The notes beneath the pieces were generated by a model that saw nothing but the letters and a program-made list of their open reading frames with translations, had not been told where the DNA came from and made no database searches. A DNA stretch of 42,763 nucleotides, taken from a virus. Position numbers and translations under genes: made by a program. This document shows, piece by piece, positions 6,536-19,069 of the stretch (positions are counted from its first letter, which is position 1; every line of letters begins with the position of its first letter). The DNA is taken from IMG/VR virus record IMGVR_UViG_3300045988_045849, one strand, 5' to 3'.

Positions 6536-7373
6536 ACTTAGATATACTGCAAACGGCGGTGAGGAAATCGTACTTGATTTTGACCACGGTTATATAATCA
6601 ACACCGTTAAGGGCGCGACGGGAAGAACGGTTGACGTGCAAACTGCGCAAGGCTTTGAGCAAATCGGCGAAACCGTAACGGGAATGTCTCTCGGCGGGCA
6701 GCTCTTAACAATAAACGGCAGAATCCCCATGCAGAACACATCCGCTAAACGTGCTATGCTGCGTATATTTCAGCCGCTTTCGTCTGGGCGGCTGTACTGG
6801 GAAGACAAGTATTATATAGAAGTTGTTGTTCGTGATTCTCCGCAAATATCGCAAGAACGGCACTCCACATTTCTTCTCGCGCTTTATGCGCCTTATCCGT
6901 ATTGGCAAAAGGCTAATCAATCGCGTTACGAACTCGGCGGTTTGACGGCTGAGTTTATGTTCCCTATTAACTACGCAACGCCGCACCGTTTCGGCTCGAC
7001 CACTATTGAGACGCAGTTTAATGCTTACAATGCCGGAGACTGCGCAGCCTCGTTTACATTGACTATAACGGCGGGAGAAGCTGCCCTTACTAACTTTGCC
7101 GTCACGGACGTTAATACTCAAAAGGCTATTAAATTTATTGGCACGCTCGACGCGGGAAAGCGGATTGTAATGTATCGTGAAAACGGACAACTCTACATCA
7201 AGATTGACGGAACTACGGATGCTTTCGATATGCTCGACGATACTTCCGATTTGTATTCCCTCGCGGCTGGCGATAACGTGCTTTTGTTTACGGCGGATTC
7301 CGGCGCGTCCTCGGCGAAGGTGTCAATCACGTTTAATGAATCTTATGTGGGGGTGCTGGCTGATGGAGTGTAG
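6528..7373 (+). CDS. Distal tail protein (Dit-like)
   Basis: The GTG start overlaps the tape measure stop. A 281-aa product directly after the tape measure gene is the usual Dit arrangement. Confidence 0.6.
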   Translation: MYKLRYTANGGEEIVLDFDHGYIINTVKGATGRTVDVQTAQGFEQIGETVTGMSLGGQLLTINGRIPMQNTSAKRAMLRIFQPLSSGRLYWEDKYYIEVVVRDSPQISQERHSTFLLALYAPYPYWQKANQSRYELGGLTAEFMFPINYATPHRFGSTTIETQFNAYNAGDCAASFTLTITAGEAALTNFAVTDVNTQKAIKFIGTLDAGKRIVMYRENGQLYIKIDGTTDAFDMLDDTSDLYSLAAGDNVLLFTADSGASSAKVSITFNESYVGVLADGV

Positions 7374-8358
7374 TCTATATAACTCGGCTCTCAGCAAAAT
7401 AGGCATTATCACGGCTTTTACCTCTCTTATATGGGGCGAGAGCTACACGGGCAGCGGAAGCTTGCAATTTGTGATGCCAAAAACAAAAGATGCTGCAAAA
7501 ATAATCTCCTGTGGTAATTTTATCGGTATTCCCGCATCTGACACGCTTATGTATATCCAGTCAACCGAGGACAAGGACGGCGAATTATGGGCATATGGCT
7601 GCGAAGCAAAATGTCTGCTTGATGGGCGCGTTTATGCGGGCAGTGCGAAGTGTAAGGGAAATATCGAAACCGCGCTAAGGGCGGCTGTTGCTGCGTCGCG
7701 TCCATACTCAATTATAGGACTTGCGCCGCTTAGAGGTATAACAAAAACAACAACGTCACAGAGAACCTATCCCACGCTTTACGAGCTGTCGCGTGTGTGG
7801 TGTGAAGCTGGCGGCATGGGTTTTCGTCTCGTCCACGACAAAGCCGCTCACAAGCTGTTGTATGACGTTTACGAGGGCGCGGAGCGAAACGGAATAAAAT
7901 TTGCTGAACAATACGGAAACTTATATAATCTCGAGCGGCTCATATCAGAGACGACTTATAAAAACGTGGCGTATGTCGGCGGCGGCGGCGAAGGAACTAA
8001 CCGTGTATTTGTAACGACTGGTGATACGTCGTCAACCGATTTTGCGCGGCGTGAGCTGTTTATTGATGCTCGTGACTTGCAACAGGAGGATGGACAGACG
8101 CTGGATGAATATAAAACGCTGCTTATGGCACGAGGAAACGAAAAGCTGAACGAATGCGCAAAGGTGCAGGAAATATCTTTTGATATCTCGGCGCAGGATT
8201 TCGGCAAGTCGTTTTCGCTCGGCGATATTATTACTTGTGTCCTGCCGGACTATAATTCCGTCCTCTCTGTGCGGGTAGCGGAATATACGAATACTTACGA
8301 GAATAACCAAATCACGACGCAGCTTACTCTCGGAAATCCTATATTAAGGGGGTTATAA
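7363..8358 (+). CDS. Tail-associated protein (Tal / Sipho_Gp37-like)
   Basis: The ATG at 7363 overlaps the Dit stop by 11 nt. The upstream part of tracked ORF 7177.. lies inside Dit and is Arg/Cys-rich nonsense. Confidence 0.5.
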   Translation: MECSLYNSALSKIGIITAFTSLIWGESYTGSGSLQFVMPKTKDAAKIISCGNFIGIPASDTLMYIQSTEDKDGELWAYGCEAKCLLDGRVYAGSAKCKGNIETALRAAVAASRPYSIIGLAPLRGITKTTTSQRTYPTLYELSRVWCEAGGMGFRLVHDKAAHKLLYDVYEGAERNGIKFAEQYGNLYNLERLISETTYKNVAYVGGGGEGTNRVFVTTGDTSSTDFARRELFIDARDLQQEDGQTLDEYKTLLMARGNEKLNECAKVQEISFDISAQDFGKSFSLGDIITCVLPDYNSVLSVRVAEYTNTYENNQITTQLTLGNPILRGL

Positions 8359-9162: not shown

Positions 9163-9870
9163 ATGGCTATAATCAGCGCATTTCCGGGCAAAAGCAAACC
9201 GAAGTTGCAATCTAAAACTATACATCCGCTATATGCTCAATTTGACGTAACTCCGGATAGCGGATATGAAGGATTAGCCAAAGTTACAATTGCGCCCCAA
9301 TCGCAAGTTAAATATGTTACACCGTCTACCACTCAAAAAACCGTAACACCTGACAGCAACAAGCTGCTTTCGTCTGTCGTAGTAAATGCAATCGAGACGC
9401 AGACAAAAGGCGTTTCTCCGACCATTAATGAGCAAATAATAAAGCCTGACAGCGGTAAATATCTTACTCAAGTCACAGTAGGTGGAGCGATTGGCGGATA
9501 TTATACGCTGTCAGATACATATAATACTGATTCAACCAAACTGGAATTTAGCGTCCCTGTAGTGGACGGAAGAAATCCTGCGATTATTGCGCTTTACTCA
9601 AACGGGCACGAAGGAACGACCAAACAAATCTTATCCGCAATGCTAACTAAACGCGATGGAAACTCTATATATGATGCAGTCTGCTGGGTTAACATGGGTT
9701 CGAATAGTTTTGACGAAAAAGTTATTACTCAAATAAGTATTGCGTACAGACTTACGACTAAAAAAGCTATCATTACATTGCCGTCAACGACAGCTTGTGT
9801 TTTTGGCGGAACGTCCTTAGGAAATCAATATGCAGTTGTAATGACTTACAACGACATACAAGGAGGTTGA
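9163..9870 (+). CDS. Hypothetical tail module protein
   Basis: 235-aa ORF with an RBS (gtgaggtgaaagc), tightly packed in the tail module. Confidence 0.4.
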   Translation: MAIISAFPGKSKPKLQSKTIHPLYAQFDVTPDSGYEGLAKVTIAPQSQVKYVTPSTTQKTVTPDSNKLLSSVVVNAIETQTKGVSPTINEQIIKPDSGKYLTQVTVGGAIGGYYTLSDTYNTDSTKLEFSVPVVDGRNPAIIALYSNGHEGTTKQILSAMLTKRDGNSIYDAVCWVNMGSNSFDEKVITQISIAYRLTTKKAIITLPSTTACVFGGTSLGNQYAVVMTYNDIQGG

Positions 9871-9872
9871 TT

Positions 9873-11006
9873 ATGATTTATATTGGCAAATTTAAAGTAA
9901 CCTCGCCGTTTGGCTGGCGCATGTTGAACGGCGAACGAAACAATCACAAGGGTATTGATGTTGTCGGAATTGACGATAAAAATATCCGCGCTGTTGTGGC
10001 AGGAACTGTCGGACGCTCCACAATGCTTGACAAGGCGACTGATACCACCTTAACGTGGCAATGGGGCAATTATGTGCGGGTGGACGGCGACGACGGGAAT
10101 CTGTATTATTATTGCCATATGTCAAAGCGAATTGCCAAAGTTGGACAGCGCGTTGAAATTGGCGATATCCTCGGAGTTGAGGGAAACACAGGCTACTCCT
10201 TCGGCTCGCATTGTCACTTTGAGGTCCGCAAAGGCGGCGTTTCTGTAAATCCTGCTCCGTTCCTCGGCGTGCCGAACGCGGTCGGGGAATATACTGCTCC
10301 GGCAAAAAAGGCGGATAAATACACGGTCAACGGTTTTACTATTGAGCGGCTTTCTAAGTTTTCGATTGCTTACTGGGATAAGGCAAAACGCAGTATTCCC
10401 GATAAGGCTTCAACGGGCGGCTTCTGGGCACCGTATTCGTCTACGGACGGCAATTTCACATTGCCCGTCGCTAATATTGTGTGTGATTGCAAGCTTGAGG
10501 ATATTCCCTCTCCGGCGCGACCGCATATTTCAAAATTCTGCTCCGGTGGCAAGCTGCGCATCGGCTGCAACGACAACAATTCTCCGCAGTTTCACGGAAA
10601 AAAGGTGTCGACGCTTATCGTTCCGGCTGTCGGCAAGCCTTATATAGACGATGTGGCGGCAGCTCCGGCGAACGCTCGATATGCTATTTCCGGCGTTCCC
10701 ACGGTACGGAATTATGACGATGTTGATTATTACAACTACGTCGAGCCGCAGGGATGGGACGGCTCTTGCATGGCGGCGGGCTGGCGAAGCTGGCTCGGTA
10801 TCCGCGACGGCGAAATTTGGCGAATATACGGCAGGACTTACCGTTATAACTACATCTACGGCATGGAGTTCTGGAAGAAAATCAAGGACGAAGGCTTTAG
10901 CGACATAATTTGTCTCGACGGCGGCGGCTCTTGGGTTATCCGCAACAAAAATATCTCTGCGACTGCCGGAAACCGAAATATCAATAATATTATTAAAAAT
11001 GGGTAA
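9873..11006 (+). CDS. M23 (LytM-type) metallopeptidase lysin with C-terminal ..CLDGGGS.. domain
   Basis: AGGAGG lies 7 nt upstream of the ATG at 9873. Motifs HKGIDV (HxxxD) and GSHCHFE (HxH) are present, and the C-terminal half ends in ICLDGGGSW. Confidence 0.85.
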   Translation: MIYIGKFKVTSPFGWRMLNGERNNHKGIDVVGIDDKNIRAVVAGTVGRSTMLDKATDTTLTWQWGNYVRVDGDDGNLYYYCHMSKRIAKVGQRVEIGDILGVEGNTGYSFGSHCHFEVRKGGVSVNPAPFLGVPNAVGEYTAPAKKADKYTVNGFTIERLSKFSIAYWDKAKRSIPDKASTGGFWAPYSSTDGNFTLPVANIVCDCKLEDIPSPARPHISKFCSGGKLRIGCNDNNSPQFHGKKVSTLIVPAVGKPYIDDVAAAPANARYAISGVPTVRNYDDVDYYNYVEPQGWDGSCMAAGWRSWLGIRDGEIWRIYGRTYRYNYIYGMEFWKKIKDEGFSDIICLDGGGSWVIRNKNISATAGNRNINNIIKNG

Positions 11007-11298
11007 AAAGATAAAAAACACGTTCGCCAACTTGAAGCAGTATACAAAGCAAATCCTCACTGCGGTCATGGTTGTGTGGGTGGCTGGGGCTGTTATCGGT
11101 ATTGTTTATGAGTTCGTCCGGCTCGCCGTTGCGCCGGATACCGCATCAATGGACGGGTTATATGTATATCTCGCAGTCCCTCTCTCGTGCGGTCTGCCGT
11201 CGTACATAATTCCTAACCTCTTCCTCAAGCGTGAAGAGGTGCGGAGCGGGCGATACTACGGCGAGGACACAAGCGGCTCGGATATCGAATTGCAATAA
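10999..11298 (+). CDS. Holin-like membrane protein (two hydrophobic segments)
   Basis: Overlaps the lysin stop. Hydrophobic segments are ILTAVMVVWVAGAVIGIVY and LYVYLAVPLSCGLPSYIIP. Confidence 0.45.
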   Translation: MGKKIKNTFANLKQYTKQILTAVMVVWVAGAVIGIVYEFVRLAVAPDTASMDGLYVYLAVPLSCGLPSYIIPNLFLKREEVRSGRYYGEDTSGSDIELQ

Positions 11299-11414
11299 AA
11301 AAGAGAAAAGCCGCCTTTATGGCAGCTCTTCTCTGGTCGGTAAACGAAAAGGAGATATAAAATGATTATATCACGGCGAGCAAACTAAATCAACCATTTT
11401 CGGAGGTAAAAATT

Positions 11415-11654
11415 ATGAACGAGTTAAAAAAGAAACTCAGCTCTCGCAAGTTGTGGACTGCGGTCTGCGGCATTGTTGTCGGACTGGCGGCGGCGTTCGG
11501 TCTTGATGAAAACGAATGGGCGCAGATTGCCGGAATTGTGACATCGGCGGTGTCCGTAATCGCTTATATTTTTGGTGAATCGTCTATTGATAAGGCGAAC
11601 AAAAAGCCGGAAGAAAAAACAAACGGCACTGTCACGGAAGAACCGCAGGAATAA
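11415..11654 (+). CDS. Holin-like membrane protein (two TM segments, charged C-terminus)
   Basis: 79 aa with an RBS (ggaggt). Segments are LWTAVCGIVVGLAAAFGL and IAGIVTSAVSVIAYIFG, followed by a K/E-rich tail. Confidence 0.55.
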   Translation: MNELKKKLSSRKLWTAVCGIVVGLAAAFGLDENEWAQIAGIVTSAVSVIAYIFGESSIDKANKKPEEKTNGTVTEEPQE

Positions 11655-11723
11655 TCTCTCAATGGCTGTGCGACCGAAACCGCGTGAAGTGAGCTATAGC
11701 GCGGATTAAAGGAGTGCGGCGTT

Positions 11724-11921
11724 ATGCCTGATAATTCCGTTATTGCGGCTTTGATTGATGAGAAAATCCACCATGAGCGAAACAGGCGGCTTTTGAAGCG
11801 GAGACTTATTGACGGCATCTGCTTTGAGCCGCTCGCGGAAGAATTTGACTTGTCCGTGCGGCAAACAAAAAATATTGTTTCTCGCGGAACAAAGCAAATT
11901 TATAAAGAAAAGAGCGAATAA
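11724..11921 (+). CDS. Small sigma-70 region-4-like / YlxM-like HTH protein
   Basis: 65 aa with an aaaggag RBS. The pattern LLKRRLIDGICFEPLAEEFDLSVRQTKNIVSRGTKQI matches region 4.2-type HTH proteins. Confidence 0.55.
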   Translation: MPDNSVIAALIDEKIHHERNRRLLKRRLIDGICFEPLAEEFDLSVRQTKNIVSRGTKQIYKEKSE

Positions 11922-11932
11922 TCGCTCTTTTT
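11908..11932 (+). terminator. Rho-independent terminator
   Basis: AGAGCGA (11911-17) pairs with TCGCTCT (11922-28) around a 4-nt loop, followed by a T-run. The stop codon lies in the loop. Confidence 0.6.
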
Positions 11933-11935
11933 CTA

Positions 11936-11964
11936 TTGACAACGCGGATGGTGAGTGATACAAT
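11936..11964 (+). promoter_or_regulatory. SigmaA-type promoter TTGACA-17-TACAAT
   Basis: TTGACA at 11936-41, a counted 17-nt spacer, then TACAAT at 11959-64. Confidence 0.55.
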
Positions 11965-11970
11965 AACCAT

Positions 11971-12094
11971 GACTTTAAATACAACCCCATGCACACAGGG
12001 AAGATGAAACTCGGGACTTCATTTACCCGCAAAACGGCGATAAGGCAGGACGTATCAAGCGGCGTTCGGCTTTACCGTCGTTTTTGTTTTATTT
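11971..12094 (+). ncRNA. Candidate small RNA or leader (about 120 nt) between promoter and long terminator hairpin
   Basis: Hairpin 11998-12028. A 16-bp stem pairs 12031-12046 with 12069-12084 (one mismatch, two G-U pairs), followed by TGTTTTATTT. No credible ORF is present. Confidence 0.35.
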
Positions 12095-12160
12095 GCCAAG
12101 ATATACAAACCACGGCGCACAAATTTGTGTATTTATATATCAAAAATATTGCAAAAGCTA

Positions 12161-12189
12161 TTGCAAAATACCCACCATGGGTGTATAAT
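12161..12189 (+). promoter_or_regulatory. SigmaA-type promoter TTGCAA-17-TATAAT
   Basis: TTGCAA at 12161-66, a counted 17-nt spacer, then TATAAT at 12184-89. Direct repeats and a palindrome lie upstream. Confidence 0.6.
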
Positions 12190-12227
12190 ATAGATGTACC
12201 AAGGAGGTACAGAAAGGCAGGTAGAAC

Positions 12228-12395
12228 ATGGAGAAAATAAAAGGCATGACTAATGCGCAACTGAACGGATATCTCGAATTAATAGCAAAGCTAATAGAAG
12301 CAAAAGCAATCACCCTTGAAGAAGCCGCAAAAATAGTACGCGAAGCAAAAGTACCCAACAAAAAAGAAAAGCCTGTTCCGCATACGTCCAAATAA
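12228..12395 (+). CDS. Small helical hypothetical protein (55 aa, below the ORF-track cutoff)
   Basis: Translated by hand as MEKIKGMTNAQLNGYLELIAKLIEAKAITLEEAAKIVREAKVPNKKEKPVPHTSK. It lies about 40 nt downstream of the 12161 promoter. Confidence 0.4.
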   Translation: MEKIKGMTNAQLNGYLELIAKLIEAKAITLEEAAKIVREAKVPNKKEKPVPHTSK

Positions 12396-12502
12396 CCGAA
12401 ACAGGCAAGATAAGAGTGGAGCGGTAAACCTGCCGCCGCTCCGTACTCTTATTATATCACGGCAGGATGAAAAAAGCAAGACAAAAAGCAAAGGAGAAAG
12501 CC

Positions 12503-13033
12503 ATGACGGCAAAAGAATTGATTGAAAAATATAAAATATATCTCGTGGGTGACGAAAATATTGCTACTCGGCAAATGCCAAAAGTAAAGAAAGACGGAGC
12601 TTATGATGCGGTTATGGCGGCGAAAGAAGAAATCATAGTTTTGCTCAAAGCCGAAAAGGAAGCAATCAAAAAGGCAACTGCAGAACGTGAAGCAAAAATC
12701 GAAGCAATAGAAGGATTAAGCGAACTTGAACGTGCAATAGCTGAACGCCGGGAATATCAAAAGGATTTTGAGCGCATGATGGATGACGAGTGCAACGATG
12801 GTTTACGTGCTCCAAAACGGCCGATATGCGATATTGCTGAACTCAAAGAGAAATATCCTCGTGCCGCCGCATATCTCAAAGCAGAAGATTATAGTTTGGC
12901 AGCAAACGCAAAGAAAAGCTCAGCTGGACATAAGGCATTAGAGCGAATTATCGACGGAGGGGATTATAAGTCGATAATTGCTGACATGGAAAACGAATGG
13001 GCGGATTATTGCAACGCGCATATGTGGGATTGA
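12503..13033 (+). CDS. Hypothetical helical protein
   Basis: AAGGAG lies 6 nt upstream of the ATG at 12503. The tracked start at 12467 has a weaker RBS. The product is K/E/A-rich and ends ..EWADYCNAHMWD. Confidence 0.6.
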   Translation: MTAKELIEKYKIYLVGDENIATRQMPKVKKDGAYDAVMAAKEEIIVLLKAEKEAIKKATAEREAKIEAIEGLSELERAIAERREYQKDFERMMDDECNDGLRAPKRPICDIAELKEKYPRAAAYLKAEDYSLAANAKKSSAGHKALERIIDGGDYKSIIADMENEWADYCNAHMWD

Positions 13034-13036
13034 GGA

Positions 13037-13699
13037 ATGACGCTCGAAGAAAGAATTATATCAACTTTTGAAAACGTGGGGTCTATCGCTAAAACAGCGG
13101 AAATTACTGAATTAAACACAGCGGTTGTCCGAAAAGTCTTGATATCGAACGGCATTATACCAACGCCAAAGTCGGACAAAGTATCAGAATATCTCGAAAA
13201 AGGATTTACTACAAAACAAATCGCTGAAATCTTGGAAATAAAGGAAAAATCATTAAACGGATATCTGCCATATTCGAAAACGCCGTATGTGATAGGGGAA
13301 AAGCTCAAGCTCCCGCCGAATAATGTTAAAGCAAAAGTATATGGCACGTGGGAAAGGAAAGGGGGAAACAAAATGCCTTATAATATTTTCTCTCAATTGC
13401 TTTCGGCGGCTGTAAACGCTGCTGATTATGATGAGTATTGCTCTAAAGCTAAATCAATAGTCAAACCGAATATATACGAGGATGCAGATTATGACATTGA
13501 CAAAGCGCTGAACAATATATACGCATTCGCGCACGAACAAACATATAGAAACTTAGCTCAATTGTGTGGAGCGACAAATAGGTATGTTGCCAAAACATAC
13601 AATGTACCTGTAAAAACTGTTGAAAAATGGCGGAGCGGTTATAGCAATCCCGCAATATATATACTAAACTTGTTGGCAGCTGATATGCTTACACAATAA
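13037..13699 (+). CDS. Multi-HTH DNA-binding protein (possible internal start at 13373)
   Basis: Three HTH-like segments: SIAKTAEITELNTAVVRKVL, TTKQIAEILEIKEKSLNGYL and a C-terminal ..VKTVEKWRSGYSNP... A GGGGGA RBS precedes the in-frame ATG at 13373. Confidence 0.55.
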   Translation: MTLEERIISTFENVGSIAKTAEITELNTAVVRKVLISNGIIPTPKSDKVSEYLEKGFTTKQIAEILEIKEKSLNGYLPYSKTPYVIGEKLKLPPNNVKAKVYGTWERKGGNKMPYNIFSQLLSAAVNAADYDEYCSKAKSIVKPNIYEDADYDIDKALNNIYAFAHEQTYRNLAQLCGATNRYVAKTYNVPVKTVEKWRSGYSNPAIYILNLLAADMLTQ

Positions 13700-13720
13700 T
13701 TGCACCAAAATAGCACTAAA

Positions 13721-13759
13721 TAAGCCTTTTCACTTCATTGTGGAAAGGCTTATTTTTTT
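13721..13759 (+). terminator. Rho-independent terminator
   Basis: An 11-bp stem pairs 13721-31 with 13742-52 around a 10-nt loop, followed by T7. Confidence 0.8.
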
Positions 13760-13789
13760 GTACAATTTAGGCATAACGGAGGGGCAAAA

Positions 13790-14173
13790 ATGGCTGAATT
13801 TGTATCATACAACGCAAATCCCGACGGGAATCGAGTGGGCGACTGCACTATACGCGCGATATCGGCGTTTCTCGGAAAATCGTGGGAAGAAACGTACATC
13901 GGTATCGCGCTTACTGGCTTTATCATGCGTGATATGCCGTCGGCAGATTCCGTGTGGGGGTCATATTTACGGCAAAATGGGTGTTGCCGTTACACGATAC
14001 CGAACACCGCTCCGGCTGATTATACGGTGCGGGAATTTTGCGAGGATATGCCAGAGGGCGAATATCTTTTATCAATCGCCGGACACGTAGTCTATGTCGA
14101 GGACGGCAGGTATTATGACACATGGGATTCCGGCAGCGAAATCCCTCACTACTACTGGAAGAAGGAGAGATAA
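13790..14173 (+). CDS. Papain-fold-like (C39/NlpC-P60/transglutaminase-like) thiol protein
   Basis: 127 aa with a ggagggg RBS. Ordered candidate triad: Cys in NRVGDCTIRAIS, His in SIAGHVVYVEDG, Asp in YYDTWDSG. Confidence 0.5.
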   Translation: MAEFVSYNANPDGNRVGDCTIRAISAFLGKSWEETYIGIALTGFIMRDMPSADSVWGSYLRQNGCCRYTIPNTAPADYTVREFCEDMPEGEYLLSIAGHVVYVEDGRYYDTWDSGSEIPHYYWKKER

Positions 14174-14175
14174 AT

Positions 14176-14685
14176 ATGGCTTATTATGGCGTACCGCAGT
14201 ACGGTTATCCTCAATATACTATGCCAATGCCCGACCAGCTGACGCAGTTGCGCGGCGGTTATAATCAGCCGCCAATGCAACAGGGCACGTATGCGCAAGC
14301 TCCGCAAATGCCGCAAATGGGGCAGATGCAGTCAATGCCACAGGAAGCTCCACCTATGATATGGGTGCAGGGCGAAGCGGGAGCAAAGGCGCATATAGTC
14401 GCGCCGGGAAACACGGCTGTGCTATGGGACAGCGAAAATCCGATTATCTATATCAAATCGGCTGACGCTAACGGAATGCCGTCAATGAGGATTATCGACT
14501 GGAAAGAAAGAAGCGCGTCCGCGCCGCCTGTAATGCAACCGAATGCCGCGCAAAACGTGCAATATGTCACTGTCGACGAGTACAACAAGCTCGCGGCGGT
14601 GGTGAATGATTTAACGGCAAAACTCAACGGAATTATGGCGCAGAATGCGCAGAGAGGGGATAACAATGCCGAACCCACTGTATAA
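14176..14685 (+). CDS. Gln/Pro/Met/Tyr-rich protein with C-terminal beta-rich domain
   Basis: GAAGGAGAG RBS, with the ATG 2 nt after the upstream stop. The N-terminal ~60-70 aa run YYGVPQYGYPQYTMPMPDQ...QMPQMGQMQSMPQEAPPM, followed by IWVQGEAGAKAHIVAPGNTAVLWDSENPIIYIKSAD. Confidence 0.6.
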   Translation: MAYYGVPQYGYPQYTMPMPDQLTQLRGGYNQPPMQQGTYAQAPQMPQMGQMQSMPQEAPPMIWVQGEAGAKAHIVAPGNTAVLWDSENPIIYIKSADANGMPSMRIIDWKERSASAPPVMQPNAAQNVQYVTVDEYNKLAAVVNDLTAKLNGIMAQNAQRGDNNAEPTV

Positions 14686-14890
14686 CGAAATGCAAAAAAA
14701 CGCTCCGAACCAACTCGAAACGGTTTTTGAAAGATTTATGAACCAATTTAGGGGGCAAAATCCGACCGCAATTATTAATCAGATGGTGCAGTCAGGGCAA
14801 ATCTCACAGGCGCAGCTTAACACCGCGCAAGACCGTGCAAGGCAGCTCGGCTCTATGTTTGAGGGGCTGCGCGGTAAATATAAATTATGA
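14666..14890 (+). CDS. Small Gln/Asn-rich helical protein
   Basis: GAGGGGA RBS; the ATG at 14666 overlaps the upstream gene by 20 nt. 74 aa. Confidence 0.5.
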   Translation: MPNPLYNEMQKNAPNQLETVFERFMNQFRGQNPTAIINQMVQSGQISQAQLNTAQDRARQLGSMFEGLRGKYKL

Positions 14891-14945
14891 TTCATACTCG
14901 GAAACGAGATGAAAATATTATTTTTCAGAAAGGGCAAAAAGAACT

Positions 14946-15800
14946 ATGTCAATTTCGGCAAGTGAAATGACACCTGCGGATATCGCAGCTGTCACTAACA
15001 ACAATTGCGGCAGAAATGGTGATGGTTTCGGCTGGGGCGGGGACTGGACAGCGTGGATAATTCTGTTCCTCATCTTCGGTATGTTCGGCTTCGGCAACGG
15101 CGCATGGGGCGGCGGTTTTGGCGGCGGTAGAAGTGCTGGCTCGGCTGTCGACGGCTATGTGCTGACATCCGACTTCGCAAACATCGAGCGTAAGATTGAC
15201 GGTGTGAACAACGGGCTTTGCGACGGATTTTACAATATGAATTCGGCATTGCTCAATGGCTTCCACGGCACCGATAATGCTATATGTAGTCTCGGTTATC
15301 AGACGCAGCAGGGCTTTAACCAGGCGAACATGGGCATGATGCAGGGCTTTAATGGTGTTGAGAGGGGACAGGCAGACCTCGCGCGTCAGATTGCGGAATG
15401 CTGCTGCAATATGCTGCGTGGTATTGATGGCATTAACTACAACATGGCTCAGCAGACCTGCGGTATTACTAATGCAATTAACAATTCCACTCGTGACATC
15501 ATCGACAACCAGAACCAGAACAGCCGTGCAATCCTTGATTACCTCTGTCAGGATAAGATTGCAACTCTTCAGCAGGAGAATCAGGCACTTCGTCTCGCGG
15601 CTTCGCAGAGCAACCAGAACGCGTTTATTCGCGCAACGATGGAAGCGAATACTGCAGAGATTATACGCAGAACGGGCAACGAATGTCCTGTTCCGGCGTA
15701 CATCGTGCAGTCACCCCAGCCGCTCACCTTCCCTACTAACTGTTGCGGACAGGTACAGCTCAGCGGCTATGGTTGCTGCAACGGTTGCGGCAGTTACTAA
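14946..15800 (+). CDS. Membrane-anchored Gly/Trp-, Asn/Gln- and Cys-rich protein (14 Cys)
   Basis: TM segment WTAWIILFLIFGMFGFG flanked by GDGFGWGGD and GAWGGGFGGG. Also contains AECCCN and the C-terminal NCCGQVQLSGYGCCNGCGSY. Confidence 0.65.
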   Translation: MSISASEMTPADIAAVTNNNCGRNGDGFGWGGDWTAWIILFLIFGMFGFGNGAWGGGFGGGRSAGSAVDGYVLTSDFANIERKIDGVNNGLCDGFYNMNSALLNGFHGTDNAICSLGYQTQQGFNQANMGMMQGFNGVERGQADLARQIAECCCNMLRGIDGINYNMAQQTCGITNAINNSTRDIIDNQNQNSRAILDYLCQDKIATLQQENQALRLAASQSNQNAFIRATMEANTAEIIRRTGNECPVPAYIVQSPQPLTFPTNCCGQVQLSGYGCCNGCGSY

Positions 15801-15873
15801 TTAAATTAATCTGTGATACATCTTCCTTGCCGGATGTTCGGGATTTTTTGCCCGATGTTGTATTCAAAAACGC

Positions 15874-15907
15874 GCGGCGGGGCAATAGTTCCGCCGCTTT
15901 AATTTTT
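15874..15907 (+). terminator. Rho-independent terminator (bidirectional shape)
   Basis: GCGGCGG (15874-80) pairs with CCGCCGC (15891-97), followed by TTTAATTTTT. An A5 run lies upstream. Confidence 0.75.
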
Positions 15908-15928
15908 AAAAAAGAAAGTGAAATAATC

Positions 15929-16141
15929 ATGACCGAAAAAGAAAAACTCGAAAGAAATGCAAAAGTCGAAAGTATACTTAACAAAGTTATTGACAAAATC
16001 GGCGCGATGAAAATAGAGGAAATGGAAATAGCGGAAATTTCAGCGCTGCTCTCTTTGCTTGGAATGTGCCGCTATTATTCGCCTTTTTTCTACTGTGTCG
16101 ATACATCTCTCATAAAAAAGGATGGTGAATCAAATGCCTAA
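15929..16141 (+). CDS. Small hypothetical protein (70 aa)
   Basis: In-frame ATG at 15929 just after the terminator. Product has a helical N-terminus and a hydrophobic ISALLSLLGMCRYYSPFFYC segment. Confidence 0.45.
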   Translation: MTEKEKLERNAKVESILNKVIDKIGAMKIEEMEIAEISALLSLLGMCRYYSPFFYCVDTSLIKKDGESNA

Positions 16142-16556
16142 ATACACAGCTATTGCCGTGCAGGAAGTCGCCGAGAACCAGAACGTTATTTTAACCGACG
16201 CTATTTGTTGCAATCGTGGGAACGTGCTGCACAATACAGGCTCGGGGCAGGTGACTTTGCGCGGCATTACAAATCAGTGCTTTGCTCGATACCGCGTGTC
16301 TTTTGGTGGTAACGTTGCAATCCCGACAGGTGGCACAGCACAGGCTATTACAATTGCGCTCTCGCTTAACGGCGAAGCATCGCGCAGTGCTTTGGCAATA
16401 ACAACGCCTGCGGCGGCTGCCGAATACGGTAATATCTATATCGACGATATTGTAGACGTGCCGCGCGGCTGCTGCTTGACGCTTGCTGTAAAGAACCTCA
16501 CCGAAGCAACGGTTAACGTGCAAAACGGAAATCTGATTATCGAAAGAATAGCGTAA
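16134..16556 (+). CDS. C1q/TNF-like (BclA C-terminal / BxpB-like) beta-sandwich protein
   Basis: 140 aa. The pattern ENQNVILTD..HNTGSGQVTL..YRVSFGGNV..ITIALSLNGE..LAVKNLT..NGNLIIERIA resembles exosporium C1q-like domains. It has 5 Cys, including two CC pairs. Confidence 0.5.
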   Translation: MPKYTAIAVQEVAENQNVILTDAICCNRGNVLHNTGSGQVTLRGITNQCFARYRVSFGGNVAIPTGGTAQAITIALSLNGEASRSALAITTPAAAAEYGNIYIDDIVDVPRGCCLTLAVKNLTEATVNVQNGNLIIERIA

Positions 16557-16571
16557 GAAAGGAGAACGAAA

Positions 16572-16967
16572 ATGAAAAAAGCATTACACGAACTCAAAGA
16601 GCTGCTTTGCGAAGAACTTGACGAAATCGCGGCGAAAAAGGAAATGAACGCCGGAGACCTCGAAACCTTGCAGAAGCTGACCGATACTATTAAGAATATC
16701 GACAAAATTATGATACTCGAAGAGGACGGCGGATACTCTCAGGCGGGCGACTATGAAGTTCGCGGCAAATACATGATGGGCGGAGATACTTATCGTGATG
16801 GCGGCATGAGCGGCAGAAGACAGCGCAGAGACAGCAGGGGGCGTTACTCTTACGACGACGGCAAACACGAGATTGTTGAACAGCTCGAAGTCATGCTTGA
16901 TAATGCGTCGGATAAGGAACGTGAAGCAATCCGTCGTTGCATTGAAGTCCTCAAAGATATGCGATGA
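16572..16967 (+). CDS. Helical protein with central Arg/Gly/Asp/Tyr-rich linker
   Basis: aaaggagaacgaaa RBS. Central segment reads GGMSGRRQRRDSRGRYSYDDG and the C-terminus reads DKEREAIRRCIEVLKDM. Confidence 0.6.
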   Translation: MKKALHELKELLCEELDEIAAKKEMNAGDLETLQKLTDTIKNIDKIMILEEDGGYSQAGDYEVRGKYMMGGDTYRDGGMSGRRQRRDSRGRYSYDDGKHEIVEQLEVMLDNASDKEREAIRRCIEVLKDMR

Positions 16968-17284
16968 TAACGCTCGAAGAGCTTGACGAAGCTATACGGG
17001 ATTGCGAAAGCTCCGACCGCCATACTTACGACGACTGCATCCGGCTTGCCGCGCTTTATACGATAAAGAATCAGCTTTATCCCGATACCATGCCGGAGCT
17101 GCGTCAATCTTTCCGCGCTCCCGTGGACGAGATAGAAAGCTACGGAGAAAGCGAATTTCTGCAGCTTGTCTCCGGTAAAAAAGCGGAAAGTGTGTGGAGC
17201 GTGATTGACGAGCTGATGAACACGCTCGAAATCACGAATCCTCGTTTGTACGACGGAGTAATGCGTAAGATAGACCGATTATAG
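16964..17284 (+). CDS. Acidic helical hypothetical protein
   Basis: ATGA overlap with the upstream gene. It is the last gene before attP. Confidence 0.55.
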   Translation: MITLEELDEAIRDCESSDRHTYDDCIRLAALYTIKNQLYPDTMPELRQSFRAPVDEIESYGESEFLQLVSGKKAESVWSVIDELMNTLEITNPRLYDGVMRKIDRL

Positions 17285-17315
17285 CGTGTTGCATTTTCGT
17301 GTTGCATTTGTTGCA
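17285..17315 (+). repeat. Direct repeats CGTGTTGCA (17285, 17298) plus TGTTGCA (17309): candidate integrase arm-type sites, left arm
   Basis: Read directly from the sequence. The same 9-mer recurs at 17563 and 17575 on the other side of the tRNA-like core. Confidence 0.5.
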
Positions 17316-17420
17316 CATGGGTGTGCGGTGAACCACAAAATTGTGTTTTGCGTAAACAATTCCGTGTATCTTAATGCGGAATGAATGACGGATATTCACC
17401 AATCAAGCATAATTATACAA

Positions 17421-17453
17421 AAATAACGCATATATCGTGTATATGCGTTATTT
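17421..17453. terminator. Perfect 14-bp hairpin, bidirectional terminator shape
   Basis: AAATAACGCATATA pairs with TATATGCGTTATTT around a 5-nt loop. A/T runs lie on both sides. On the - strand it starts 9 nt after the tRNA-like 3' end. Confidence 0.65.
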
Positions 17454-17461
17454 CCTTTCAT

Positions 17462-17486
17462 TGCAGGTAACAGGGGTCGAACCTGC
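17462..17486 (-). other. tRNA 3'-end fragment (T-arm plus acceptor 3' strand): probable attP core
   Basis: The minus strand reads GCAGG-TTCGACC-CCTGT-TACCTGC-A. It has a canonical T-loop but no matching 5' half nearby, and it is adjacent to int. Confidence 0.55.
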
Positions 17487-17527
17487 ATGAGGTTTTATAA
17501 ATGCTCTTTGATTCTTTTGGATTCATG

Positions 17528-18610
17528 TTATTTTCTCTCTTTTTCTTCCTCTCCTGCATTTTCGTGTTGCATTTCGTGTTGCACCGTCTCAAAATAGCGG
17601 TTTATTTGTTCCGTAACTTCTTCGTTTTTGTCGTCCATCAAGTGCTGGTATACATTTTTGAGCATATTAGGCGTTGCGTGTCCCATGCGCTGCATTGCAT
17701 ATTTATCCGGCACACCGAGTGACAACATCAAACTCGCGTAATAGTGGCGGAGGTCATGGAAACGTATATCAAGACGAAGGCGGTCGCATAGCGTAGCGAA
17801 AGTGTTTGATATTCGTGCGGGATTTTTGATTTTATATCCGCTGTCCCGCGCCGCTTTTAATTTCTCTATTACCCATTCGGGACAATCTATTTCGCGGGTG
17901 CTGCTGGTGGTCTTCGGCTGCTTTGTCACCCACTCGTTATTTTCATTTTGCGATACCGCTTTTGTTATTTTGATTTTGCACTTGTTATAATCGATATCTT
18001 TGCTCAAATCGAGGGCGCATATTTCGCCGCGCCGCATTCCGCAGGTCGCGGCAAGCAAAACGGGAATTTCGAGAGGTTTTCCCTCTACGGCTTTCAATAG
18101 GATTTGCAGCTCGCTGTTTGTTGGGATGTGCATTTCTTTCTTCTGTCGTTGCGGGAGTTTGATGTTGTAGTGTATCTCCGGCACTGCCGCGCGTATTGCT
18201 GCGTAAAATAAGCCGTATATGTTCGCTATGGTTTTCGGCGCAAGGGTCCGCGCTTCCCTGTTTATTTCTGACTGGATTTGACTTTCGGTCAGTTTTTTTA
18301 TTTTTATCTTTTTTATCGTTTTTAAATGATTGCGCAGGTATCCGCGAGATTCGCGCACGGTCTTGGGAGACATTATTTCGTCGCGGTCTGATATATACTT
18401 TTCAATCGCTTCTTCCACTGTCATTTCTTCCGGTGTTCGGTCGTGGGATATGCCGCGCTCCAGTTCATACTTCCGCCGAGCGGCTAACAAATTCGCTTCT
18501 GATTCCGTCGGGGCGGTGATAGATTCGTACTGTCGTTTTCCGTTTTCATCCACTCCCACGTATAGCAGGACGCGCCAATTGCCGGAGGGGAGCTTTTTTG
18601 CCTTTGCCAT
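17528..18610 (-). CDS. int: Tyrosine integrase
   Basis: 360 aa. N-terminus reads KKLPSGNWRV. Catalytic motifs are RRGEICAL, HDLRHYYAS and GHATPNMLKNVYQH. Confidence 0.92.
   Translation of the reverse strand: MAKAKKLPSGNWRVLLYVGVDENGKRQYESITAPTESEANLLAARRKYELERGISHDRTPEEMTVEEAIEKYISDRDEIMSPKTVRESRGYLRNHLKTIKKIKIKKLTESQIQSEINREARTLAPKTIANIYGLFYAAIRAAVPEIHYNIKLPQRQKKEMHIPTNSELQILLKAVEGKPLEIPVLLAATCGMRRGEICALDLSKDIDYNKCKIKITKAVSQNENNEWVTKQPKTTSSTREIDCPEWVIEKLKAARDSGYKIKNPARISNTFATLCDRLRLDIRFHDLRHYYASLMLSLGVPDKYAMQRMGHATPNMLKNVYQHLMDDKNEEVTEQINRYFETVQHEMQHENAGEEEKERK
17555..17584 (+). repeat. Direct repeats CGTGTTGCA (17563, 17575): candidate arm-type sites, right arm, inside the int 3' end
   Basis: TGCATTTTCGTGTTGCATTTCGTGTTGCAC, in the same orientation as the 17285-17315 copies. 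Confidence 0.5.
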
Positions 18611-18630
18611 TTCATTTTATCTCCTATTTC

Positions 18631-18660
18631 AAAAAGCCGGATTTTGCTCCGGCTCTTTTT
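18631..18660 (-). terminator. Bidirectional rho-independent terminator between the lipoprotein gene and int
   Basis: AGCCGGA (18635-41) pairs with TCCGGCT (18648-54) around a 6-nt loop, flanked by A5 and T5. Confidence 0.7.
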
Positions 18661-19069
18661 ATTCTTTTGCGAGGTGCACTGTCTTAGTTACTCCCATGGC
18701 GGTTACGTCAAACGTAATTTCGCCGTCCGAATTGTAAGTGAAGTCTTTCGTGTCGTCGCCGGACGCGAGAAGTGCTGAATCTGTTTTATCGTGGTCGTTG
18801 ACACTGCTCCACGTATATGTTCCGGCTTCGGTCGGCGCGACGTATGTACCCGACCAGTAGAGGGCGCGTGTCTCGTCTGCTGACCAGTATACCTCTATCG
18901 TGTCGGAGGTAATTTCGGCAGACATTTTCGCATCGGAATCCGTGTTTGTTTCAATCCAACTGCCCGACAAATCGGGAACAGTACCTTTTTCTTCGCCTTT
19001 GCCAGAGCACGCTGTTAACGCGCATCCGCATAGAACGAGAGCGATTATTGCTGCTATTGCTTTTTTCAT
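18659..19069 (-). CDS. Secreted lipoprotein (candidate superinfection exclusion or sensor partner)
   Basis: Signal peptide MKKAIAAIIALVLCGCALTAC with lipobox LTAC. The start lies 3 nt after the upstream stop. Confidence 0.8.
   Translation of the reverse strand: MKKAIAAIIALVLCGCALTACSGKGEEKGTVPDLSGSWIETNTDSDAKMSAEITSDTIEVYWSADETRALYWSGTYVAPTEAGTYTWSSVNDHDKTDSALLASGDDTKDFTYNSDGEITFDVTAMGVTKTVHLAKE

What the first reader, a model, noticed from the sequence alone, without database searches (positions are those of the whole stretch)
13790..17284. Eight-gene, two-operon cargo block next to attP encoding thiol-enzyme-like, Gln-rich, Cys/Gly-rich and C1q/BclA-like proteins: candidate undescribed envelope or spore-surface module
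The block sits where temperate phages carry morons, after the lysis genes and before attP/int. It is framed and split by strong terminators at 13721-59, 15874-907 and 17421-53. Its genes are translationally coupled: a 2-nt gap at 14173/14176, a 20-nt overlap at 14666, an overlap at 16134/16141, and an ATGA overlap at 16964. None of the eight products looks like a virion, lysis or replication protein. The mix is odd. It includes a papain-fold-like Cys..His..Asp protein and a protein with an N-terminal Q/P/M/Y-rich region of ~60-70 aa. It also includes a TM-anchored 284-aa protein with 14 Cys and Gly/Trp-rich flanks. A 140-aa beta protein has a sequence pattern recalling C1q-like BclA/BxpB exosporium domains. 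The remaining products are helical acidic or RG-rich proteins. Cys-rich proteins, a C1q-like protein, a Gln-rich protein and a thiol enzyme together match the parts list of spore coat and exosporium layers (CotY/ExsY/CdeC, BclA, GerQ plus Tgl). One hypothesis is therefore a phage-borne module that builds or decorates a host surface or spore layer. A superinfection-exclusion or defence role is the main alternative.
Basis: partly seen in the sequence, partly recalled or inferred. Interest (0 to 1): 0.8.

Follow-up and report, generated by a model that had tools for sequence, protein, structure and literature searches.

The report
Conserved phage cassette with BclA-like protein
This block is one copy of a widespread, uncharacterised seven-gene accessory cassette of gut Clostridia phages that most likely builds a cysteine-rich fibre capped by a BclA/TNF-fold protein; it is real and unusual, but the evidence does not tie it to spores.

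Summary
Seven of the eight genes (g1-g4, g6-g8) keep their order in more than 100 phage, prophage, satellite-like and remnant loci. g5 is a 174-nt insertion missing from 97%-identical relatives.

Two fold guesses were confirmed. g6 is a stand-alone TNF/C1q jelly-roll whose best PDB matches are F-BclA, ExsFA and BxpB. g1 is a minimal papain-like Cys-His-Asp protein. g4 has a Gly/Trp-flanked hydrophobic segment, a proline-free helical stalk, an invariant CCC motif and a Cys/Gly tail. It belongs to a family of at least 8000 clusters and has a full-length homologue in a crAss-like phage.

No gene matches any Pfam, NCBIfam or PADLOC family.

The cassette often sits behind its own terminator and -10 box, after a small sigma-region-4-like gene. 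It survives intact in a Ruminococcus prophage remnant.

The spore-layer reading is not supported as a general function. The cassette occurs in a Butyrivibrio phage, in large phages with no integrase nearby, and in part in crAss-like phages.

Best reading: a mobile structural cassette that makes a fibre-and-knob assembly. Where that assembly acts is unresolved.

The parts
11724..11921 (+). 65-aa sigma-70-region-4-like small HTH gene; probable regulator that travels with the cassette (inferred)
   Evidence: It is 60% identical to the 68-aa gene directly upstream of g1 in L088. The same family (cluster c12) lies immediately upstream of g1 in 10 loci. A c12 member gives a weak Sigma70_r4 hit at E=0.0055. 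The gene is retained next to the cassette in the remnant island L174. In the window it is separated from g1 by a hypervariable three-gene slot.
13718..13766 (+). Terminator hairpin (13718-13755) plus T-run, overlapping a promoter-like TTGTGG (13738-13743), 17 nt, TACAAT (13761-13766)
   Evidence: The hairpin folds at -23 kcal/mol with z=-7.4. The same layout (strong hairpin, T-run, then a TACAAT/TATAAT/CACAAT box 15-40 nt before the g1 ribosome-binding site) recurs in about 20 of 45 homologous loci, with different stem sequences. Promoter function is inferred from the pattern only.
13790..14173 (+). g1: minimal papain-like Cys-His-Asp protein (127 aa)
   Evidence: phrog_3754, E=4e-26. Asp18, Cys19, Arg22, His99, Asp110 and Ser114 are invariant. 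In the AlphaFold2 model (pLDDT 89), Cys19 starts helix 18-28 and His99 starts strand 99-104. Foldseek gives only weak matches: Josephin-2 at E=0.05 and TM 0.50, PRRSV nsp1, and NlpC/P60.
14176..14685 (+). g2: Gln/Pro/Met/Tyr-rich N-terminus, conserved beta-looking core (IWVQGEAGAK...YIKSxDxSG), C-terminal helix (169 aa)
   Evidence: phrog_21718, E=4e-25. The family alignment is. g2 precedes g4 in 63 of 79 viral loci. There is no PDB relative.
14666..14890 (+). g3: 74-aa Gln-rich helical protein
   Evidence: phrog_22984, E=2e-20. It is conserved between g2 and g4, and an alternative form (G3b) occupies the same slot in a second lineage.
14946..15800 (+). g4: core protein with an acidic N-tail, a Gly/Trp-flanked hydrophobic segment (about 36-50), a proline-free amphipathic-helical stalk with an invariant CCC motif, and a Cys/Gly-rich C-terminal tail (284 aa, 14 Cys)
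   Evidence: phrog_16490, E=8e-57. At least 7998 90%-identity clusters. The hydrophobic segment has almost no flanking Lys or Arg. Hydrophobic periodicity of 3.6-3.7 residues is 3.2 times that of shuffles. crAss-like cr53_1 gp66 matches over its full length at E=3.5e-39.
15874..15897 (+). GC-rich terminator-like hairpin between g4 and g6
   Evidence: -20 kcal/mol, z=-3.4, followed by a T-run. It is conserved, with two changes in the stem, in L079-L081.
15929..16141 (+). g5: 70-aa ORF on a 174-nt insertion; variable, not a conserved member
   Evidence: It is absent from the 97%-identical relatives L079-L081 and present in others (L183, L184). It has no family hit. An unrelated 81-aa ORF fills the same slot in L088.
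16134..16556 (+). g6: stand-alone TNF/C1q-fold (BclA C-terminal domain / ExsF-like) protein, 140 aa, with invariant Cys49 and Cys113-Cys114
   Evidence: phrog_20016, E=2e-45. The AlphaFold2 model is all-beta with pLDDT 82.8. Foldseek against PDB gives 9h38 F-BclA (E=1e-7), 7r1m ExsFA, 8d02 BxpB (TM 0.78), 1wck BclA, TNF ligands and C1q. Against BFVD it matches stand-alone gut-phage proteins at TM 0.82-0.90. There are 903 50%-identity clusters, and all of the best 150 are 83-196 aa, with no fused stalk.
16572..16967 (+). g7: helical N- and C-terminal parts flanking a Gly/Tyr/Ser/Arg/Asp low-complexity centre (131 aa)
   Evidence: Weak phrog_28802 hit. It follows g6 in 31 loci, and an analogous G7b form occurs in 14 more. 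There is no PDB relative.
16964..17284 (+). g8: 106-aa acidic helical protein, translationally coupled to g7
   Evidence: Family alignments are. It is the last gene of the cassette. In the second lineage it is replaced by a 105-aa HExxH protein, G8b. There is no PDB relative.
17421..17453 (.). AT-rich 15-bp palindrome between the convergent g8 and integrase genes; terminator for int and/or part of attP
   Evidence: -15.7 kcal/mol on the + strand and -16.2 kcal/mol on the - strand, z=-5.9 and -4.8. The T-run is on the - strand only.

Best explanation
The block is one copy of a widespread, self-contained accessory cassette carried by phages and phage-derived elements of gut and rumen Clostridia. 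The conserved genes are g1-g2-g3-g4-g6-g7-g8. A small sigma-region-4-like gene and a terminator/-10 element often precede them.

I read it as a structural cassette that makes a cysteine-rich fibre-and-knob assembly in the cytoplasm.
- g4 is the stalk: an N-terminal Gly/Trp-flanked hydrophobic segment that anchors in, or inserts into, a membrane; a long proline-free helical rod with an invariant CCC motif; and a Cys/Gly tail.
- g6 is a stand-alone TNF/C1q-fold trimer that caps or sockets the stalk, in the way ExsF/BxpB sockets BclA.
- g1 is a minimal papain-like Cys-His-Asp enzyme that processes or cross-links one of the low-complexity partners.
- g2, g3, g7 and g8 are assembly or matrix partners.

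Shown: the conservation and mobility of the cassette, purifying selection on it, the two fold assignments, the sequence anatomy of g4, and the absence of export signals on every protein other than g4.

Inferred: the g4-g6 pairing, trimer formation, the role of g1, and the promoter.

Unresolved: where the assembly acts. My split is roughly 0.3 virion-associated or released with the particles, 0.25 a membrane complex protecting the lysogen or the infected cell, 0.15 a cell-envelope or spore layer, 0.1 lysis or egress, and the rest other.
For: - Collinear co-occurrence at 30-60% identity in 72 genome loci and 79 viral contigs.
- Membership survives rearrangement. g1 lies after g7 in L106 and L113, and an HNH gene is inserted between g3 and g4 in Dulem virus 33.
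- The cassette sits in different contexts: after lysis genes and next to integrase (window, L088, Dulem virus 33), inside a head module, before the endolysin, after tail-fibre-like genes in a 184-kb contig, at the end of a capsid-only, satellite-like element, and alone in a Ruminococcus chromosome abutting tRNA-Ala.
- dN/dS between two of these contexts is 0.02-0.17 for g2, g3, g4 and g7.
- g6 has the TNF/C1q fold, which in PDB and BFVD is the knob or socket of trimeric fibres such as BclA, ExsF and collagen-C1q virus fibres.
- g4 has a helical periodicity of 3.6-3.7 residues and no proline from residue 61 to 245. Its CCC motif and C-terminal Cys are nearly invariant.
- g6 has invariant Cys49, Cys113 and Cys114.
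- g1 has an invariant Cys-His-Asp triad on a papain-like core.
- There are no enzymatic or defence-family hits.
- A terminator plus -10 box lies upstream of g1 in about 20 of 45 loci.
Against: - No direct evidence that g4 and g6 bind each other or form trimers.
- The g4 stalk was not modelled. Its coiled-coil character rests on periodicity and on weak, non-significant matches to HA2, CSM1 and septin.
- The g6 slot is sometimes filled by an unrelated Cys-rich protein. g4 is also far more widespread than g6, so the pairing is not obligatory.
- g1 also occurs alone in early regions of Tsamsa-like Bacillus phages, in GBK2 and in Lak megaphages. It may have a job of its own.
- There are no expression or proteomic data.
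- Low-complexity and Cys-rich composition is suggestive of a structural role, not proof of one.
Confidence: 0.45

Rival explanations
1. Spore-coat or exosporium module. The prophage expresses the cassette in the sporulating mother cell. g4, g6, g2 and g1 would then act like ExsY/CdeC, BxpB/BclA, GerQ and Tgl to build or decorate a spore layer.
For: - The g6 fold matches exosporium proteins best.
- The proteins are Cys-rich and lack signal peptides, as spore outer-layer proteins do.
- The cassette is att-proximal and insulated, like a moron.
- It is kept in a Ruminococcus prophage remnant.
- A related phage that carries the cassette also carries a Spo0A_C gene.
- Many host lineages named in the MAG titles are Clostridia that may sporulate.
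Against: - No sequence membership in any coat or exosporium family.
- The cassette is present in a Butyrivibrio fibrisolvens phage and an isolate Butyrivibrio prophage; the genus is described as non-sporulating.
- It is present in large phage contigs with no integrase nearby.
- g4 has a full-length homologue in a crAss-like phage.
- The box upstream of g1 looks like a housekeeping -10 (TACAAT/TATAAT). By inspection it does not resemble sigma-E or sigma-K consensus.
Confidence: 0.1
2. Membrane-anchored superinfection-exclusion or defence complex that protects the lysogen, or the infected cell, from other phages.
For: - It lies in the region next to int/att where prophage protective genes are commonly found, beside a hypervariable gene slot.
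- It has its own regulator-like gene and an insulating terminator.
- It is retained in a degraded prophage and carried by a satellite-like element.
- g4 has a membrane-type hydrophobic segment.
- Such a function would be useful to both temperate and lytic phages.
Against: - No PADLOC hit.
- No nuclease, NTPase or other effector-type domain.
- Seven genes dominated by low-complexity, Cys-rich and jelly-roll proteins are unlike known exclusion proteins or defence systems.
- In some phages the cassette lies inside structural operons.
Confidence: 0.2
3. Lysis or egress accessory. g4 would act as a spanin-like or fusion-peptide-like membrane disruptor, working with the neighbouring holin and endolysin.
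For: - The cassette usually follows holin and endolysin genes.
- In crAss-like cr53_1 the g4 homologue follows a holin and a LysB-like gene.
- g4 has a Gly-rich hydrophobic segment followed by a helical rod. Its weak best PDB profile hits are the HA2 fusion peptide and stalk, at E about 0.1.
Against: - The HA2 hits are not significant.
- No protein in the window's cassette starts with a signal peptide or lipobox, so there is no o-spanin-type lipoprotein partner.
- The hosts are mostly monoderm.
- The cassette is kept where the holin and endolysin are lost (L174), and it can lie far from lysis genes (Dulem virus 39 and Dulem virus 35).
- A terminator separates it from the lysis genes.
Confidence: 0.08
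4. No functional unit: the genes are unrelated hypothetical genes that hitch-hike together at a permissive site.
For: g1 and g4 each occur without the others in some phages. The slots for g5 and g6 are replaceable.
Against: - The order is kept across proteins only 30-50% identical, in very different genomic contexts.
- Membership is kept even when the order changes.
- The genes are translationally coupled.
- Selection is purifying.
Confidence: 0.05

Closest known systems
BxpB/ExsFA and the BclA C-terminal domain (Bacillus cereus-group exosporium; PDB 8d02, 7r1m, 1wck, 9h38, 9h3d)
   Same: g6 has the same TNF/C1q-type jelly-roll at TM 0.71-0.78. Like BxpB/ExsFA it is a stand-alone domain of about 140-150 aa with no stalk of its own. 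It is made without a signal peptide and is encoded next to a Cys-rich partner.
   Different: Sequence identity is only 10-14% and there is no Pfam match. There is no collagen-like region or exosporium-targeting N-terminus. It is encoded by phages, including phages of non-sporulating hosts. Its neighbours (g4 and the rest) are unrelated to ExsY/CotY.
Trimeric virus fibres with a TNF/C1q-like knob (collagen-C1q fibres of giant viruses and phages; Sf6-type tail-needle knob; phi812 central spike knob)
   Same: The knob has the same fold. The neighbouring gene encodes a long helical rod. All parts are made in the cytoplasm and the cassette is co-oriented with late genes.
   Different: Stalk and knob are separate genes here. 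All 150 best g6 relatives are stand-alone. g6 is strongly conserved rather than hypervariable. The stalk carries a membrane-type hydrophobic segment and 7-16 Cys. The cassette is insulated by a terminator and survives without any virion genes.
Cys-rich spore outer-layer proteins (ExsY/CotY, CdeC/CdeM)
   Same: High Cys content, no export signal, and a presumed capacity for self-assembly and cross-linking.
   Different: No sequence similarity. The hydrophobic anchor and long helical rod of g4 are not features of those proteins.
Papain-like (clan CA-type) minimal cysteine peptidases and isopeptidases, e.g. Josephin, C39-like and NlpC/P60
   Same: g1 has a Cys at the N-terminus of a helix, followed by His and Asp on consecutive strands, all invariant. 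Its best structural match is Josephin-2.
   Different: The Foldseek match is weak (E=0.05, TM 0.50). There is no Pfam or PDB sequence match. The protein has only 127 residues. Its substrate and reaction type (peptidase, isopeptidase or transglutaminase) are unknown.
Morons / lysogenic-conversion cassettes of temperate phages
   Same: In the window and in many relatives the cassette lies between the lysis genes and int/att. It is framed by terminators with a promoter-like box, sits beside a hypervariable slot, and is retained in a decayed prophage.
   Different: It has seven co-evolving genes rather than one or two. It is also found inside structural operons and in phages that appear non-temperate.

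Membership tests
BclA / ExsF (BxpB) exosporium TNF/C1q-like proteins | TNF/C1q-type ten-strand jelly-roll fold | tested here: met
   AlphaFold2 model with pLDDT 82.8. Foldseek against PDB gives 9h38, 7r1m, 8d02, 1wck and 9h3d at E from 1e-7 to 1e-5 and TM 0.71-0.78.
BclA / ExsF (BxpB) exosporium TNF/C1q-like proteins | Sequence membership (any Pfam family, which would include BclA C-terminal or C1q domain models) | tested here: not met
   No Pfam family at E<=1 for g6. None for any of the 33 family members at E<=0.5. No NCBIfam hit. A PDB profile search gave only a chance-level NifB-like hit.
BclA / ExsF (BxpB) exosporium TNF/C1q-like proteins | Collagen-like (GXX) stalk and N-terminal exosporium-targeting region (BclA-type) | tested here: not met
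   g6 is 140 aa of jelly-roll only. The best 150 of 903 representative relatives are 83-196 aa.
BclA / ExsF (BxpB) exosporium TNF/C1q-like proteins | Located in the exosporium of a sporulating host | not testable with these tools
   Indirect evidence is negative: the cassette occurs in Butyrivibrio phage Ceridwen and in Butyrivibrio sp. INlla21.
ExsY/CotY/CdeC Cys-rich spore-layer proteins | Sequence similarity to a coat or exosporium family | tested here: not met
   g4 and 35 relatives gave no consistent Pfam hit. No NCBIfam hit.
GerQ + Tgl cross-linking pair | Sequence similarity of g2 to GerQ and of g1 to Tgl or a transglutaminase core | tested here: not met
   No Pfam or NCBIfam hit for g1 or g2. 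PDB profile searches were negative. Cross-linking activity itself cannot be tested here.
Papain-like cysteine peptidases | Cys, His, Asp/Asn in that order and invariant; Cys at the N-terminus of a helix packed on a beta-sheet that carries the His | tested here: met
   Cys19, His99 and Asp110 are invariant in 37 and in 40 sequences. The model has helix 18-28 and strands 99-104 and 107-110.
Papain-like cysteine peptidases | Significant structural or sequence match to a known member | tested here: inconclusive
   Best Foldseek hit is Josephin-2 at E=0.05, probability 0.89 and TM 0.50. PRRSV nsp1 and NlpC/P60 score lower. No sequence-level hit.
Spanins (i-/o-spanin pair) | N-terminal transmembrane segment plus periplasmic coiled coil, paired with an outer-membrane lipoprotein gene | tested here: not met
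   g4 has a hydrophobic segment and a helical rod. However, no cassette protein starts with a lipobox or signal peptide, and the hosts are mostly monoderm. The crAss-like phage already has a separate LysB-like gene.
Known anti-phage defence systems (PADLOC-DB) | Match of any component to a defence-system model | tested here: not met
   No hit for any of the eight proteins at E<=1.
Phage morons / lysogenic-conversion cassettes | Own promoter and terminator, att-proximal position, dispensable for virion production | tested here: inconclusive
   Terminators and a -10 box are present, the cassette is next to int in about 15 genome loci, and it is retained in a remnant. Against this, it also sits inside structural operons. 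Promoter activity and dispensability were not tested.

The most novel reading that the evidence does not exclude
Phages, satellites and their remnants in gut anaerobes carry a portable kit for a previously undescribed proteinaceous structure. This would be a cysteine-cross-linkable fibre/knob lattice: a g4 stalk, a TNF-fold or other Cys-rich cap, a dedicated papain-like processing enzyme, and prion-like low-complexity partners. It would be assembled in the cytoplasm and would end up coating cells, spores or released virions as a protective or adhesive integument. It would be analogous to an exosporium nap or an occlusion matrix, but evolutionarily unrelated to either.
Probability: 0.15. Interest if true: 0.85.

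Novelty: new variant of a known kind. Interest (0 to 1): 0.6.

Why it matters
All seven families are very common in gut and rumen viromes, and none has a Pfam family or any assigned function. g4 alone has at least 8000 90%-identity clusters. The window's own phage was seen in about 150 sample blocks.

A defined, portable, co-evolving cassette gives these 'dark' genes a joint handle. One cultured phage, Butyrivibrio phage Ceridwen, carries it, so it can be tested directly.

If the product is on virions, it would be a new type of two-piece, Cys-rich fibre shared by Bacillota phages and, in part, crAss-like phages. If it acts in the lysogen, it would be an unusually large structural lysogenic-conversion unit, one that bacteria keep after the prophage has decayed. 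Either result would annotate thousands of hypothetical proteins.

Tried and rejected
- Pfam, NCBIfam, PADLOC and PHROGs on all eight proteins. Only unnamed PHROGs hit.
- Pfam on every member of the g4 and g6 alignments. No consistent family.
- Profile searches against PDB sequences for g6, g1, g2, g4, g7 and g8. Only chance-level hits. The HA2 hits for g4 (E about 0.1) are treated as non-significant.
- hhalign of the g6 profile against crAss-like cr53_1 gp65 and against the alternative protein in the g6 slot. No relationship. A PDB sequence search and Pfam/PHROGs on that alternative protein were also negative.
- Rfam scan of 11000-19000. Only a sub-threshold ctRNA hit, nothing relevant.
- Two literature searches found no description of this cassette.
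- The search for related loci with the g4 alignment failed because no stretch was conserved enough. The single sequence worked.
- I looked by eye for sigma-E or sigma-K type boxes upstream of g1 in 46 loci and saw only housekeeping-like -10 boxes. This is not a rigorous test.
- g5 as an eighth member was rejected.
- The Clostridium phage XP41-N3 hit to g4 (28.7% identity, early region) was judged to be coiled-coil noise.
- The host of the window's phage could not be identified. Its contigs are all of phage length.

Full report
**Observation**

The window is a complete 42.8-kb temperate siphovirus contig. Tail genes run to about 9870. An M23 endolysin (9870-11006) and holin-like genes follow, and then the block. 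The integrase lies at 17528-18610 on the opposite strand.

The three hairpins fold much better than shuffled sequence, with z-scores of -7.4, -3.4 and -5.9. The third hairpin has its T-run only on the minus strand, so it mainly serves the integrase gene.

**Is it a unit?**

Yes, apart from g5. A genome-wide scan with the g6 family returned 72 loci. tblastn of the eight proteins against them shows the order g1-g2-(g3)-g4-g6-g7-g8 at 30-60% identity, and clustering of all ORFs confirms it. A viral-contig scan with g4 returned 80 loci (79 with a g4 HMM hit). g6 follows g4 in 71 of those 79 and g2 precedes it in 63.

A second lineage keeps g2, g4 and g6 but swaps in alternative forms of g3 and g7, and an HExxH protein in place of g8. 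In two contigs g1 lies after g7. In Dulem virus 33 an HNH endonuclease gene sits between g3 and g4. So membership survives rearrangement.

g5 lies on a 174-nt insertion that is missing from 97%-identical relatives. It is a polymorphic extra, not a member.

**What the proteins are**

None matches Pfam, NCBIfam or PADLOC. Five match PHROGs of unknown function strongly, and g7 matches one weakly.

- **g6.** The model has pLDDT 82.8 and is an all-beta jelly-roll. Its best PDB matches are the F-BclA C-terminal domain, ExsFA, BxpB and BclA, followed by TNF ligands and C1q. In BFVD it matches many stand-alone gut-phage proteins of 130-145 aa (TM 0.82-0.90), and the knobs of collagen-C1q virus fibres. 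The family has 903 50%-identity clusters. All of the best 150 are stand-alone. Cys49 and Cys113-Cys114 are invariant.
- **g1.** The model has pLDDT 89. Invariant Cys19 sits at the start of a helix, and invariant His99 and Asp110 sit on consecutive strands. This is a minimal papain-like core. Structural matches are weak: Josephin-2 at E=0.05, a papain-like viral leader protease, and NlpC/P60. g1 relatives also occur alone in the early regions of Tsamsa-like Bacillus phages, in GBK2 and in Lak megaphages.
- **g4.** This is the core of the cassette and by far the largest family, with at least 7998 clusters. It has an acidic N-tail. Then comes a short, very hydrophobic segment flanked by Gly/Trp-rich sequence with almost no Lys or Arg on either side. 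Next is a proline-free Asn/Gln-rich region with a 3.6-3.7-residue hydrophobic periodicity and an invariant CCC motif. A conserved CPxPAY box and a Cys/Gly-rich tail finish the protein. A crAss-like phage (cr53_1 gp66, annotated 'spike protein/glycoprotein') has a full-length homologue at E=3.5e-39. It sits after a holin and a LysB-like gene.
- **g2, g3, g7, g8.** g2 has a prion-like Gln/Pro/Met/Tyr-rich N-terminus, a conserved beta-looking core and a C-terminal helix. g3 is a small Gln-rich helical protein. g7 has helical ends around a Gly/Tyr/Ser/Arg/Asp low-complexity centre. g8 is helical and acidic. None has a PDB relative.

**Context and regulation**

In the window and in many relatives the cassette lies between the lysis genes and the integrase. 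An integrase or an XRE-type repressor gene lies within about 3 kb downstream in roughly 30 of 74 genome loci.

About 20 of 45 loci have a strong terminator-like hairpin and T-run 30-60 nt before g1, followed by a TACAAT or TATAAT-like box. The stems differ in sequence but keep their pairing.

A small sigma-region-4-like gene lies directly upstream of this element in many loci. In the window it is at 11724-11921. It is separated from g1 by three genes that are replaced by other genes in near-identical phages, so this is a hypervariable slot.

The cassette also appears in other positions:
- between the minor capsid protein (MuF-like?) and major capsid genes in Dulem virus 35;
- upstream of the endolysin in the Butyrivibrio sp. 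INlla21 prophage;
- after an integrase and replication genes in Dulem virus 39;
- after huge tail-fibre-like genes in contigs of 139-184 kb that carry phage replication genes and no nearby integrase.

**A remnant that kept only the cassette**

In two Ruminococcus contigs (100 kb and 69 kb) a 100-aa membrane protein, the sigma-like gene and all seven cassette genes are intact. Here an alternative protein fills the g6 slot. They stand alone among housekeeping genes. A 34-aa holin stump lies upstream, and the 3' end of tRNA-Ala lies 7 nt downstream.

A 96%-identical copy ends a capsid-only, satellite-like element elsewhere in another genome. dN/dS between the two copies is 0.02-0.17 for g2, g3, g4 and g7.

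This suggests, but does not prove, that the cassette can benefit a host or a mobile element without a complete phage.

**Interpretation**

Several features point to a structure-building cassette rather than an enzymatic or regulatory one:
- a jelly-roll trimer-type domain;
- a long helical Cys-rich protein with a hydrophobic anchor;
- several low-complexity partners;
- one small thiol enzyme;
- no effector-type domains;
- no export signal on anything other than g4.

The simplest model is a two-piece fibre. g4 is the stalk. g6, or another Cys-rich cap, is the knob or socket. The g4 CCC motif and tail, together with the invariant Cys of g6, would provide cross-links or metal sites. g1 would process or cross-link a partner. 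All of this model is inference.

Where the product acts is unresolved.
- **For a virion- or particle-associated role:** the cassette is co-oriented with late genes, it occurs in phages that appear non-temperate and in part in crAss-like phages, and its products are made in the cytoplasm.
- **For a host-facing role (protection or envelope):** the insulating terminator and -10 box, the cassette's own regulator-like gene, its att-proximal position beside a variable slot, the membrane-type segment of g4, and its survival in a remnant.

**The spore-specific model**

This is the least supported of the structural readings. There is no family membership. The cassette occurs in non-sporulating Butyrivibrio and in large phages without a nearby integrase. 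g4 crosses into phages of Bacteroidota.

It cannot be excluded for individual sporulating hosts. One related phage that carries the cassette also encodes a Spo0A_C protein.

**Novelty and score**

I found no description of this cassette. It is best filed as a new, two-gene, Cys-rich, hydrophobically anchored variant of the known 'trimeric fibre with a TNF/C1q-type knob' theme, with unknown deployment.

Interest is moderate to high. The families are extremely abundant and wholly unannotated, and the cassette is well defined and testable in a cultured phage. But no function has been demonstrated.

Noticed in passing
L174 7900-12420 (also L175); compare L176 5690-12240: A Ruminococcus chromosome keeps only the cassette, plus a 100-aa membrane protein and the sigma-like gene. 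A 34-aa holin stump lies upstream and tRNA-Ala(ggc) lies 7 nt downstream, so this is a decayed prophage. A 96%-identical copy ends a capsid-only, satellite-like element (Phage_cap_E and connector-sized genes, no tail or lysis genes) at a different chromosomal site.
   Followed up: partly
L088 11210-11614; L174 10939-11337: In one widespread sub-lineage the slot after g4 holds an unrelated 132-134-aa Cys-rich protein (MACKPVCKLCD..., 9-10 Cys). It has no Pfam, PHROG or PDB match and no hhalign similarity to g6. This looks like a cap or knob swap.
   Followed up: partly
L088-L091, about 16364-16781: A very prevalent 37-kb temperate phage that carries the cassette also encodes a 135-aa Spo0A_C (PF08769) protein in its early region. 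This hints that the phage interferes with sporulation control in its host.
   Followed up: no
window 11921-13700: Three ORFs lie between the sigma-like gene and g1: 55 aa, 188 aa, and a 220-aa protein with a GerE/LuxR-type HTH and a second HTH. They occupy a hypervariable slot. Relatives that are 97% identical carry different genes there, and L176 carries SAP-domain and Bro-N genes.
   Followed up: partly
window 13718-13766 and homologous positions in about 20 loci: The terminator hairpin upstream of g1 recurs with covarying stems and a similar loop (e.g. TTCATT, TTGATT, TTTATT, TTCGTG). A -10-like box follows it immediately, leaving no room for a separate -35. The -35-like TTGTGG lies inside the 3' arm of the hairpin. 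This could be a combined terminator and promoter, or a regulated read-through site.
   Followed up: partly
L086 (Dulem virus 33) 7410-7961: An HNH-type endonuclease gene is inserted on the opposite strand between g3 and g4.
   Followed up: no
L084 (crAss-like cr53_1) 3913-7713: Translations of this phage contain in-frame stops, consistent with stop-codon reassignment. Next to the g4 homologue it encodes a DUF7841 protein with an Arg/Gly/Tyr-rich tail that resembles the low-complexity centre of g7.
   Followed up: no
L082 (Bacillus phage Izhevsk) 4968-5363; Lak megaphages: g1-family proteins occur on their own in the early region of Tsamsa-like phages, beside a Ser/Thr kinase and an Ocr-like gene, and in Prevotella Lak megaphages. 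This small thiol enzyme may have a host- or defence-directed role independent of the cassette.
   Followed up: no
window 33296-33367: A tRNA-Thr(agt) gene lies just upstream of the ORFs at 33.4-36.6 kb that I took, without testing, to be packaging genes.
   Followed up: no
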